Assembly: GCF_003334335.1 (NCBI RefSeq)
Contig: NZ_QOWQ01000195.1
Source of the DNA: Escherichia coli
GTDB taxonomy: Bacteria; Pseudomonadota; Gammaproteobacteria; Enterobacterales; Enterobacteriaceae
DNA: 411 nucleotides
Strand: one strand, 5' to 3'
This document shows positions 1-411 of this stretch, piece after piece. The stretch's first letter is position 1; every line of letters starts with the position of its first letter. Made by a program: the position numbers.

Positions 1-411
1 CCGTGTATCACGGGATTACCGTCCGTGTCCGTCAGCGGGGTTTTGTTCACCAGAATACTCTGCAGGCCTTTCACCGGACCTTCAATGGGTCCCTCACCAA
101 TCGCATCAATCACGCTCATCATCTGCGTGGATTTGAGGTTGTCTTTCGCCTCACGCGGTGTGTGCGCCCTGCCGCCACCTTTGCCCATTACATCACCTCT
201 TACCGTGATAATTGTTCACTCACAAAAACAACAGGCACCTCACCGGGTGCCTGCGTCATGACGGAATAAAATTTCTGAATATCTTCACATTTTCACACAC
301 TGACTGTGGCGCTTATAATTTCGCTGCGTTAGTTTTTTTTTGCCCGAGTAACAAAAACAACTCCTTAACATTAATCTTCATTTGTCTGTCCCCGCAGCTC
401 CGCGATCACTG

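What the first reader, a model, noticed from the sequence alone, without database searches (positions are those of the whole stretch)
221..361. About 129 bp of extra spacer bracketed by an exact 11-bp direct repeat, between the tail-assembly gene and J
ACAAAAACAAC occurs exactly at 222-232 and 351-361. The segment between them carries a terminator hairpin, a 10-bp palindrome, a consensus -10 hexamer and a T9 tract. The spacer upstream of J here is about 185 bp; in lambda the I-J spacer is about 60 bp by my recollection, so removing one repeat copy plus the intervening segment would restore a lambda-like spacing. That is the signature of a small insertion, such as a moron remnant, a miniature mobile element with a target-site duplication, or a recombination scar. 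The repeat is A-rich and low-complexity, so chance is not negligible.
Basis: partly seen in the sequence, partly recalled or inferred. Interest (0 to 1): 0.6.

Follow-up and report, generated by a model that had tools for sequence, protein, structure and literature searches.

The report
Known prophage small RNA gene PasB
The "extra spacer" between the phage tail genes I and J is the already published prophage small-RNA gene PasB plus a terminator hairpin in front of J. The 11-base repeat is a coincidence between these two unrelated elements, not the footprint of a mobile insertion.

Summary
The repeat is real: ACAAAAACAAC occurs exactly at 222-232 and 351-361. The hairpin, the TATAAT hexamer and the T9 run are real too.

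The window is the reverse complement of an E. coli EC2 prophage, so I and J run on the minus strand. The I-J gap is 240 bp, not 185 bp. Lambda's gap is 60 bp.

The extra DNA is a self-contained, antisense small-RNA gene, PasB (Pearl Mizrahi 2021; Zhu, Shabalina & Storz 2026). Its promoter is TTCACA-16-TATAAT at 292-319. The RNA spans window 341 to 423, 12 nt past the window edge, and differs from the E2348/69 type at 2 of 83 positions. The published northern probe matches exactly.

Repeat copy 2 is PasB nt 11-21, one allele of a variable A-rich 5' segment. Repeat copy 1 is the reverse complement of the U-tract of a separate operon-strand terminator hairpin (254-231) just upstream of J.

Across 120 related loci the two 11-mers assort independently: 59 have neither, 24 only copy 2, 18 only copy 1, 19 both. 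Modules are swapped at about 265-293, not at the repeats. None of 79 junctions beside closely related I genes is empty. So this is not a target-site duplication. It is moron-like, but already known.

The parts
1..188 (-). 5' end of gene J (tail tip attachment / host specificity protein). The ATG is at 188-186.
   Evidence: RefSeq annotates gpJ from L001 3224, which is window 188. The translation MGKGGGRAHTPREAKDNLKS... can be read. blastn matches to lambda J cover only this part.
191..210 (-). J ribosome-binding region (AAGAGGTGA at 201-193) inside a small predicted hairpin AUCAC...GUGAU.
   Evidence: Sequence. The fold of window 186-270 (minus strand) gives -28.6 kcal/mol with z = -3.1. Whether the small hairpin has a function is not tested.
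221..254 (-). Intrinsic-terminator-like element on the tail-operon strand: stem GCAGGCACC/GGTGCCTGT (254-231) followed by the U-tract TGTTTTTGTG. Repeat copy 1 (222-232 on the plus strand) is the reverse complement of this U-tract plus the last stem base.
   Evidence: Terminator scan. Fold -17.7 kcal/mol, z = -3.0. The stem is 97.8% paired across 10 distinct variants, against about 40% in slid controls, with one C-G to U-A compensatory pair and U-G intermediates. Lambda and the alternative B2 module also carry an operon-strand hairpin plus T-tract at this junction.
254..263 (.). 10-bp palindrome CGTCATGACG. Probably incidental.
   Evidence: Present in the window. It is not kept as a palindrome in other B1 variants, which read CAGTCATGATA or CAGTGATGATA.
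273..293 (+). Nearly invariant 'anchor' TTCTGAATATCTTCACATTTT immediately upstream of, and overlapping, the PasB -35. It is the boundary at which J-side modules are exchanged or added (B1, B2, sodC, tandem unit).
   Evidence: Conserved in all 24 commonest PasB-region variants. J-side sequences diverge directly beyond it. Partial blast hits end at window 263-266.
292..319 (+). PasB promoter: -35 TTCACA (292-297), 16-bp spacer, -10 TATAAT (314-319). The predicted start is near 326.
   Evidence: 11 of 12 consensus matches, with 0.4 +/- 0.6 such sites expected in shuffles. Both hexamers are conserved in most PasB-region variants. The start site itself is inferred, not measured.
333..341 (+). T9 run between the predicted start site and the published PasB 5' end. 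It can pair with the A-rich segment if it is transcribed.
   Evidence: Sequence. The 98-nt fold from 326 pairs the U-run with AACAAAAAC. A T-run of 6-8 is present in all variants.
341..411 (+). PasB small RNA, nt 1-71 of 83. The gene continues 12 nt beyond the window, to window-equivalent 423, completing the terminator stem and U7 tail.
   Evidence: The published E2348/69 coordinates (NC_011601.1 1466343..1466261, minus strand, 83 nt; Table S6 of PMC8550237) map here with 2 mismatches. The northern probe AATCCCGCAGTGATCGCGGAGCT matches L001 2996-3018 exactly.
350..361 (+). A-rich variable 5' segment of PasB, AAC-AAA-AAC-AAC, which is four A-R-N triplets. Repeat copy 2 (351-361) is PasB nt 11-21.
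   Evidence: This position varies between alleles (CAAAAACAAC, TAAGAATAAT, AAAACAAAAC, TAATAATAAC, AGAAACAAAAATAAC), and each allele listed keeps at least 3 A-R-N triplets. Reading this as an Hfq distal-face site is an inference by analogy with AgvB and AsxR (PMC4104026).
362..379 (+). Conserved single-stranded core of PasB, UCCUUAACAUUAAUCUUC, containing anti-Shine-Dalgarno-like CUCCUU and UCUUC. This is the probable seed region.
   Evidence: It is the most conserved part of the RNA body across 24 variants and is unpaired in the MFE fold. Zhu et al. place the PasB seed in the single-stranded region upstream of the terminator.
390..411 (+). 5' arm and loop of the PasB intrinsic terminator (CCCGCAG-CTCCGCGATCA-CTGCGGG followed by AUUUUUUU). 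The 3' arm and U-tail run off the window.
   Evidence: The stem is invariant, while the loop varies in length and sequence.

Best explanation
The 240-bp gap between tail genes I and J holds two unrelated functional elements on opposite strands.

(a) On the window's plus strand, antisense to the tail operon, lies the complete gene for PasB, a published Hfq-dependent base-pairing small RNA of lambdoid prophages. It has a near-consensus sigma-70 promoter (292-319), an 83-nt RNA (341 to 423) and an intrinsic terminator that abuts the stop codon of I. PasB is made in the lysogen from its own promoter while the tail operon is silent, and it acts in trans on host and island mRNAs through Hfq.

(b) On the operon strand, just upstream of the J ribosome-binding site, lies an intrinsic-terminator-like hairpin with a U-tract (254-221). 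Its equivalent exists even in lambda. It most likely stops stray or unmodified transcription from entering J, and is read through by Q-modified polymerase during lytic growth.

The 11-mer occurs twice because the A-rich 5' segment of PasB (an A-R-N-type stretch, AACAAAAACAAC) and the complement of the terminator's U-tract (UUGUUUUUGU) are both A/C-rich on the plus strand, for different reasons. In this particular combination of alleles they happen to be identical over 11 nt.

Shown: the identity and position of PasB, its synteny, the conservation of promoter and terminator, the independent assortment of the two 11-mers, and the absence of empty sites in the sample.

Inferred: the exact transcription start, the Hfq-contact role of the A-rich segment, and the role of the J-proximal terminator.
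For: - Identity: the window equals E. coli EC2 NZ_CP058571.1 2226314-2226724 in reverse.
- Layout: I ends at L001 2983 and J starts at 3224.
- PasB: the coordinates, the 83-nt length, the location between E2348C_1436 (I) and E2348C_1437 (J), and the northern probe come from Table S6 and the annotation file of PMC8550237. The probe matches exactly and the RNA matches at 81 of 83 nt.
- Expression in E2348/69: PasB BaseMean is 482-1082 and falls in the hfq deletion (log2 fold change -6.8 and -2.4), whereas I and J have BaseMean 5 and 15.
- Signals: the promoter matches 11 of 12 and the operon-strand terminator is detected. Promoter, core and terminator are conserved across 54 unique variants in 200 regions.
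- The 11-mers assort independently: 59/24/18/19.
- All 79 junctions next to I genes of at least 96% identity contain the PasB terminator, with spacers of 234-903 bp.
- The interval 233-350 is whole in only 61 genomes, while its promoter half is in 1,070.
- The hairpin is conserved with one compensatory pair.
- Zhu, Shabalina & Storz 2026 describe PasB as embedded in an operon of phage structural genes, with about 1,158 hits.
Against: - The published 5' end (window 341) lies about 15 nt downstream of the start predicted from the TATAAT. Either the mature RNA is processed, or the RNA-seq boundary is approximate, or the true promoter differs.
- No expression data exist for strain EC2 itself, and its prophage is decaying (I is frameshifted).
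- An exact 11-nt repeat is nominally uncommon (3% of shuffles). Loci with both copies are somewhat more frequent than independence predicts: 19 observed against about 13 expected (my arithmetic from the counts). A functional link is therefore not strictly excluded.
- The function of the J-proximal terminator is untested.
- Covariation support for the hairpin is weak: 48 of 500 shuffles reach the observed score.
Confidence: 0.88

Rival explanations
1. The repeat is functional. PasB nt 11-21 are perfectly complementary to the U-tract (GUUGUUUUUGU) of the terminator in the J leader. PasB could therefore pair with the late mRNA 33-43 nt upstream of the J start and modulate termination, read-through, processing or J translation. 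This would link a lysogen-expressed small RNA to tail-fibre expression.
For: - The 11-nt identity is exact and longer than in 97% of shuffles.
- The allele combination carrying both copies is mildly over-represented: 19 observed against about 13 expected (my arithmetic from the counts).
- PasB is in any case fully antisense to the I-J spacer RNA.
Against: - Complementarity stops dead at both ends of the 11-mer (A opposite G, U opposite U; sequence).
- 101 of 120 loci lack one or both copies.
- PasB alleles do not pair better with the J-side module of their own locus than with those of other loci: cognate mean -29.7 against non-cognate -30.4 kcal/mol, p = 0.66.
- The site does not overlap the J ribosome-binding site.
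- The over-representation is easily explained by shared ancestry among redundant prophage sequences.
Confidence: 0.06
2. One reading: 233-350 is a small inserted element (a miniature mobile element or moron remnant) and the 11-mers are its target-site duplication or a recombination scar.
For: An exact direct repeat flanks a 118-bp segment containing promoter- and terminator-like signals. The junction clearly accepts insertions in relatives.
Against: - The copies assort independently.
- No empty site was found in 79 close junctions or in lambda.
- The segment is split at 263-266 in about 94% of the genomes that carry part of it.
- It would separate PasB from its own promoter.
- There are no terminal inverted repeats at the inner edges; the only inverted repeat touching the copies is an A-run/T-run match.
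- Copies are about one per genome, and the loci inspected all lie between I and J.
Confidence: 0.02
3. The spacer encodes a small protein on the operon strand, either the 22-aa ORF MKINVKELFLLLGQKKTNAAKL (381-313) or the 28-aa ORF (371-285). The repeat would then be incidental coding sequence.
For: Both ORFs exist. One phage record annotates a hypothetical protein that overlaps the end of gene I and extends into the start of this spacer.
Against: - The start codons and frames are not conserved. In the commonest PasB allele the corresponding sequence reads TTACGAAGATTAAGTG, with no ATG.
- The pattern of variation, with indels in the A-rich segment, is not codon-like.
- The region is explained by an experimentally detected RNA on the other strand.
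Confidence: 0.02

Closest known systems
PasB ('pathogenicity-associated small RNA B') of EPEC E2348/69 prophage PP6 (Pearl Mizrahi et al., Sci Adv 2021, PMC8550237; Zhu, Shabalina & Storz, bioRxiv 2026, 10.64898/2026.05.13.724894)
   Same: It is the same gene. 81 of 83 nt are identical, the northern-probe site is identical, the position is the same (between tail assembly gene I and gene J), the orientation is the same (antisense), and the terminator with its U7 tail is the same.
   Different: There are two substitutions in the single-stranded core, U-C-A-C-A-U-U-G in E2348/69 against U-A-A-C-A-U-U-A here. The T-run is T9 rather than T7 interrupted by CA. The host is a urinary-tract isolate with a frameshifted I gene. 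Expression in this strain is unknown.
Morons of lambdoid phages (Juhala et al. 2000, as cited in PMC4104026), and the PR'-site small-RNA morons AgvB and AsxR (Tree et al. 2014)
   Same: It is an autonomous promoter-gene-terminator unit inserted between genes that are adjacent in lambda. It is expressed from the repressed prophage. Its product is a short Hfq-binding RNA with a variable A-R-N-rich 5' segment and a conserved 3' part, as described for AgvB and AsxR.
   Different: It is located in the tail-gene cluster, not downstream of PR'. It has no sequence similarity to AgvB or AsxR, whose Rfam families RF02702 and RF02703 give no hit. An anti-sRNA (sponge) activity has not been shown for PasB.
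Intrinsic (Rho-independent) terminators inside phage late operons that are overridden by Q antitermination
   Same: The hairpin at 254-231 with its U-tract has the canonical anatomy. Lambda has an analogous hairpin plus T-tract in its 60-bp I-J spacer.
   Different: Function is not demonstrated here. In the B2 variant the terminator lies about 100 nt from J rather than about 35 nt.
Target-site duplications of miniature mobile elements
   Same: Only the superficial picture of an exact short direct repeat flanking about 120 bp.
   Different: There is no empty site, no terminal inverted repeats and no dispersal, and the repeats assort independently.

Membership tests
PasB small RNA | Sequence identity to the experimentally defined 83-nt E2348/69 PasB | tested here: met
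   81 of 83 nt identical when mapped to window 341-423.
PasB small RNA | Target site of the published northern probe, AATCCCGCAGTGATCGCGGAGCT | tested here: met
   Exact match at L001 2996-3018, which places the RNA on the window's plus strand.
PasB small RNA | Synteny: intergenic, between the tail assembly gene (E2348C_1436) and J (E2348C_1437), antisense to them | tested here: met
   Same arrangement in EC2 and in E2348/69.
PasB small RNA | 3' stem-loop followed by poly-U (intrinsic terminator and Hfq site) | tested here: met
   CCCGCAG...CTGCGGG followed by AUUUUUUU. Twelve nt of it lie outside the window.
PasB small RNA | Expression and Hfq-dependent stability | not testable with these tools
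   Shown only for E2348/69 in the literature. There are no data for EC2.
Moron (autonomous extra transcription unit) | The flanking genes are adjacent in a related phage | tested here: met
   The lambda I-J spacer is 60 bp and has no PasB sequence.
Moron (autonomous extra transcription unit) | Own promoter and own terminator | tested here: met
   The promoter matches 11 of 12, a terminator is present, and both are conserved. Activity is predicted, not measured.
Moron (autonomous extra transcription unit) | Expressed from the repressed prophage, independently of late genes | not testable with these tools
   Published RNA-seq for E2348/69 supports it: PasB 482-1082 against I and J at 5 and 15. 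Not tested for this strain.
Mobile element with target-site duplication | The two repeat copies always accompany the element | tested here: not met
   59 loci have neither, 24 only copy 2, 18 only copy 1 and 19 both.
Mobile element with target-site duplication | An empty site with a single repeat copy in relatives | tested here: not met
   0 of 79 close junctions. Lambda's spacer has no copy.
Mobile element with target-site duplication | The element occurs as a unit at multiple unrelated loci | tested here: not met
   The whole segment is in 61 genomes, its promoter half in 1,070, with a median of 1 place per genome. The sampled places lie between I and J.
Mobile element with target-site duplication | Terminal inverted repeats just inside the direct repeats | tested here: not met
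   The repeat search shows only an A-run/T-run match (I3) and no inverted repeats at the inner edges 233... and ...350.
Intrinsic terminator (element at 221-254, minus strand) | GC-rich stem-loop followed directly by a U-tract | tested here: met
   9-pair stem with 6 GC pairs, a 6-nt loop and the tail TGTTTTTGTG. z = -3.0. Conserved in variants.
Intrinsic terminator (element at 221-254, minus strand) | Terminates transcription in vivo or in vitro | not testable with these tools
   No Term-seq or in vitro data were available.
Rfam families (any) | Score at or above the gathering threshold | tested here: not met
   No match reaches threshold in the window or in the extended locus. The best are 23.6 bits against 52 (Ref84) and 15.8 against 47 (STnc100), and the latter was not reproduced. 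PasB has no Rfam 15 model.

The most novel reading that the evidence does not exclude
In the subset of prophages that carry both 11-mer alleles, PasB's A-rich 5' segment pairs with the U-tract of the terminator in the J leader. In this way it would tune read-through into J, or processing or translation of J. A lysogen-expressed small RNA would then also control expression of the phage's own host-range protein during induction.
Probability: 0.05. Interest if true: 0.5.

Novelty: already known. Interest (0 to 1): 0.15.

Why it matters
There is little new biology here. The element is PasB, discovered by RIL-seq in EPEC in 2021 and surveyed across genomes in 2026.

The practical value is for annotation. 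PasB is absent from RefSeq/PGAP annotation of the records examined and from Rfam 15, so the I-J gap of more than 1,000 E. coli genomes looks like unexplained spacer.

Three modest points may not be spelled out in the papers I read:
1. The I-J gap is built from exchangeable modules joined at a 21-bp conserved anchor just upstream of the PasB -35.
2. The variable 5' segment of PasB keeps A-R-N triplets in every allele examined, which suggests an Hfq distal-face contact.
3. An operon-strand terminator precedes J in lambda and in both spacer types.

Tried and rejected
- Rfam scans of the window, the extended locus and the B2-type spacer gave nothing above threshold. A weak STnc100 match (15.8 bits) over the J-proximal hairpin disappeared on rescanning and was dropped.
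- AgvB/AsxR identity was considered because of the CA-rich motif. I rejected it because those genes lie at the PR' moron site, are 51-60 nt long, and their Rfam families do not hit.
- Small ORFs on the operon strand are not conserved.
- A co-evolution test of PasB against the J leader, using duplex energies of cognate and non-cognate combinations, showed no signal (p = 0.66). The first attempt timed out. duplexfold energies are inflated by long interior loops, so only the comparison is meaningful.
- I looked for a divergent operon-strand promoter feeding the J-proximal terminator. The scan found none at 9 of 12 or better. By eye there is only a weak candidate: TTATAA, an 18-bp spacer, then TGT-GAAAAT. 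The RIL-seq tables held as text list no separate IGR or 5'UTR feature for this gap (two of the tables were truncated when stored).
- I checked by eye for a CRP-like or other regulator site in the anchor. TGTGA occurs, but there is no matching half-site, so I did not pursue it.
- I could not extract the list of PasB RIL-seq targets from the truncated supplementary table.

Full report
**1. What is in the window.**

The window is 100% identical to E. coli strain EC2 (a urinary-tract isolate), NZ_CP058571.1 2226314-2226724, read in reverse. The phage tail genes therefore run on the window's minus strand.

J starts at the ATG at 188-186. It ends (...VVVIGRQG-TAA) 18 nt beyond the right edge. The short open frame from 411 to 378 is non-coding sequence.

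The true I-J spacer is 240 bp.

**2. The observation.**

ACAAAAACAAC is present exactly at 222-232 and 351-361 and nowhere else, even allowing one mismatch. The pattern-specific shuffle test (0 of 200) is post hoc. A fairer test asks how often any exact direct repeat of 11 nt or more appears in dinucleotide shuffles. The answer is 3% for the window and 0.8% for the intergenic part. The repeat is real and nominally unusual, but it is the kind of event a genome-wide scan will meet regularly.

The other listed features are all present: the hairpin at 231-254, the palindrome at 254-263, TATAAT at 314-319 and the T9 run at 333-341.

**3. What it is.**

Extending the sequence past the window edge reveals a GC-rich hairpin, CCCGCAG...CTGCGGG, followed by ATTTTTTT on the window's plus strand. 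It lies about 100 nt downstream of a near-consensus plus-strand promoter, TTCACA-16-TATAAT, which matches 11 of 12 positions. That is the anatomy of a small-RNA gene transcribed antisense to the tail operon.

The literature identifies it. Table S6 of Pearl Mizrahi et al. 2021 (PMC8550237) lists PasB with these properties:
- it is 83 nt long, at NC_011601.1 1466343..1466261 on the minus strand;
- it lies in prophage PP6 between E2348C_1436 (I) and E2348C_1437 (J);
- its northern probe is AATCCCGCAGTGATCGCGGAGCT.

The probe matches the source locus exactly. The 83-nt RNA maps to window 341-423 with two mismatches.

In E2348/69, PasB is abundant (BaseMean 482-1082) and strongly Hfq-dependent (log2 fold change -6.8 and -2.4 in the hfq deletion). 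I and J are essentially silent (BaseMean 5 and 15). PasB forms 37 RIL-seq interactions. Zhu, Shabalina & Storz (2026 preprint) report about 1,158 PasB hits, describe it as embedded in an operon of phage structural genes, and find it commonly as the only Pas sRNA in non-EPEC/EHEC isolates. That fits a urinary-tract strain.

PasB is not annotated in the RefSeq records examined and has no Rfam 15 model.

**4. Where the two 11-mers sit.**

Copy 2 (351-361) is PasB nt 11-21. An alignment of 54 unique PasB-region variants from 200 regions shows:
- a conserved promoter;
- a conserved initial region (CTGCGTTA);
- a T-run;
- a variable A-rich segment;
- a conserved single-stranded core, UCCUUAACAUUAAUCUUC, which is anti-Shine-Dalgarno-like and the probable seed;
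- a variable linker;
- an invariant terminator stem.

The 11-mer is one allele of the variable segment. The others are TAAGAATAAT, AAAACAAAAC, TAATAATAAC and AGAAACAAAAATAAC. Each of these alleles keeps at least three A-R-N triplets (here AAC-AAA-AAC-AAC). That is the motif Tree et al. 2014 associate with the Hfq distal face in AgvB and AsxR. I infer, but have not shown, that this segment is an Hfq contact.

Copy 1 (222-232) is the reverse complement of the U-tract (UUGUUUUUGU) of an intrinsic-terminator-like hairpin on the operon strand (254-231). The evidence for that hairpin is as follows:
- it is detected by the terminator scan;
- it folds with z = -3.0;
- its stem is 97.8% paired across 10 distinct variants, with one C-G to U-A compensatory pair and U-G intermediates, although the covariation is statistically weak.

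It lies about 35 nt upstream of the J start.

**5. Test of the insertion / target-site-duplication idea.**

Aligning spacers from EC2, E2348/69, EC958, 09-02E, phage JLK-2012, phage 1720a-02, EDL933 and lambda shows a modular gap with this order:
1. the I stop codon;
2. the PasB unit, antisense;
3. a conserved 21-bp anchor;
4. a J-side module;
5. the J start codon.

The J-side module is either B1 (about 84-96 nt, with the hairpin described above) or an unrelated B2 (186 nt, with a different operon-strand terminator).

In 120 IMG/VR loci collected through the anchor, the two 11-mers occur in all four combinations: 59 have neither, 24 only copy 2, 18 only copy 1 and 19 both.

I also sampled junctions without conditioning on PasB, using the I protein as the query. 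All 79 scorable junctions next to I genes of at least 96% identity contain the PasB terminator. Their spacers are 234-903 bp and none is empty. Lambda's spacer has no copy of the 11-mer.

The proposed inserted segment, 233-350, is found whole in only 61 E. coli genomes. Its PasB-promoter half is found in 1,070 genomes, with matches ending at 263-266, and the median is one place per genome. The plasmid hits are few and are again mostly partial matches.

The segment would also cut PasB off from its own promoter. The target-site-duplication or mobile-element reading is therefore refuted. The looser "moron" reading is right, with different boundaries: the extra DNA relative to lambda is the PasB transcription unit.

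**6. Could the repeat be functional?**

The identity means PasB nt 11-21 are perfectly complementary to the U-tract in the J leader. Four things argue against a conserved role:
- The complementarity ends abruptly at both sides.
- Most loci lack one or both copies.
- PasB alleles do not pair better with their own J-side module than with others (p = 0.66).
- The RIL-seq tables available list no J-leader feature.

I keep this reading as the low-probability novel case, at about 5%.

**7. Mechanism (best explanation).**

In the lysogen, sigma-70 RNA polymerase transcribes PasB from 292-319 and terminates at the hairpin abutting the stop codon of I. Hfq stabilises the RNA, and its single-stranded core pairs with target mRNAs in trans (published for E2348/69).

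The operon-strand hairpin before J is an ancestral feature of this junction, present in lambda too. It probably blocks unmodified transcription from entering J and is overridden by Q-modified polymerase. That role is an inference.

One discrepancy remains. The published 5' end (window 341) is about 15 nt downstream of the start predicted from the -10. If the longer form exists, its U9 run can pair with the A-rich segment.

**8. Verdict.**

The element is already known. Interest is low. The main practical point is that an experimentally validated small RNA is missing from genome annotation and from Rfam.

Noticed in passing
L184 (903-bp I-J spacer); L196, L202, L205 (851-852 bp): Some relatives carry an antisense Cu,Zn superoxide dismutase gene (sodC; NCBIfam NF007628, 221 bits) between PasB and J. 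In the L196 type the PasB promoter is replaced exactly at the predicted start site, so the PasB body lies downstream of sodC. It could be made as a sodC 3'-UTR product or could be dead.
   Followed up: partly
L111, L115, L046, L081 (271-274-nt J-side module): A second antisense small-RNA-like unit sits in tandem with PasB, bounded by a duplicated copy of the anchor TTCTGAAATTCTTCACATTT. It shares the AACUCCUUAA core and has its own terminator (CTCCCG...CGGGAG followed by CGUUUUUU). It looks like a diverged PasB paralogue. Unlike the window's 11-mers, this one really is an insertion flanked by a direct repeat.
   Followed up: partly
L006 (EC958) 784-1125; L007 (09-02E) 461-803; L191: An alternative 186-nt J-side module (B2) replaces the window's hairpin module. 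It has a different operon-strand terminator (AAAACCCCGGTATC...GATACCGGGGTTTCTCTTT) and gives no Rfam match. One variant (L191) has lost 47 nt, including that hairpin.
   Followed up: partly
L004 (lambda imm434) 1442-1501: Lambda's own 60-bp I-J spacer contains an operon-strand terminator-like hairpin, AAACCGCC-TGCG-GGCGGTTTTGTCATTT. A hairpin plus T-tract ahead of J is therefore shared by lambda and both PasB-type spacers.
   Followed up: no
window 273-293 (+): The 21-bp anchor TTCTGAATATCTTCACATTTT, upstream of and overlapping the PasB -35, is almost invariant even where the rest of the promoter has diverged. It contains a tandem TTCACA (284-289 and 292-297) and marks every module junction. 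It could be a regulator site, an UP-like element or a recombination linker.
   Followed up: no
window 326-341 (+): The published PasB 5' end (341) lies about 15 nt downstream of the start predicted from TATAAT 314-319. The intervening GCGUUAGU plus U9 can pair with the A-rich segment, which would mask it in a longer primary transcript.
   Followed up: partly
L001 2403-2983; L002 (EDL933) 1093-1718: The host prophages are decaying but keep the PasB region. In EC2 the I gene is frameshifted. In one EDL933 prophage L is truncated, K and I are missing and J is frameshifted, yet a PasB-like gene with a shortened terminator loop remains.
   Followed up: no
window 191-210 (-): The J Shine-Dalgarno sequence (AAGAGGUGA) lies within a small predicted hairpin, AUCAC...GUGAU. 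The whole J leader (186-270) folds with z = -3.1.
   Followed up: no
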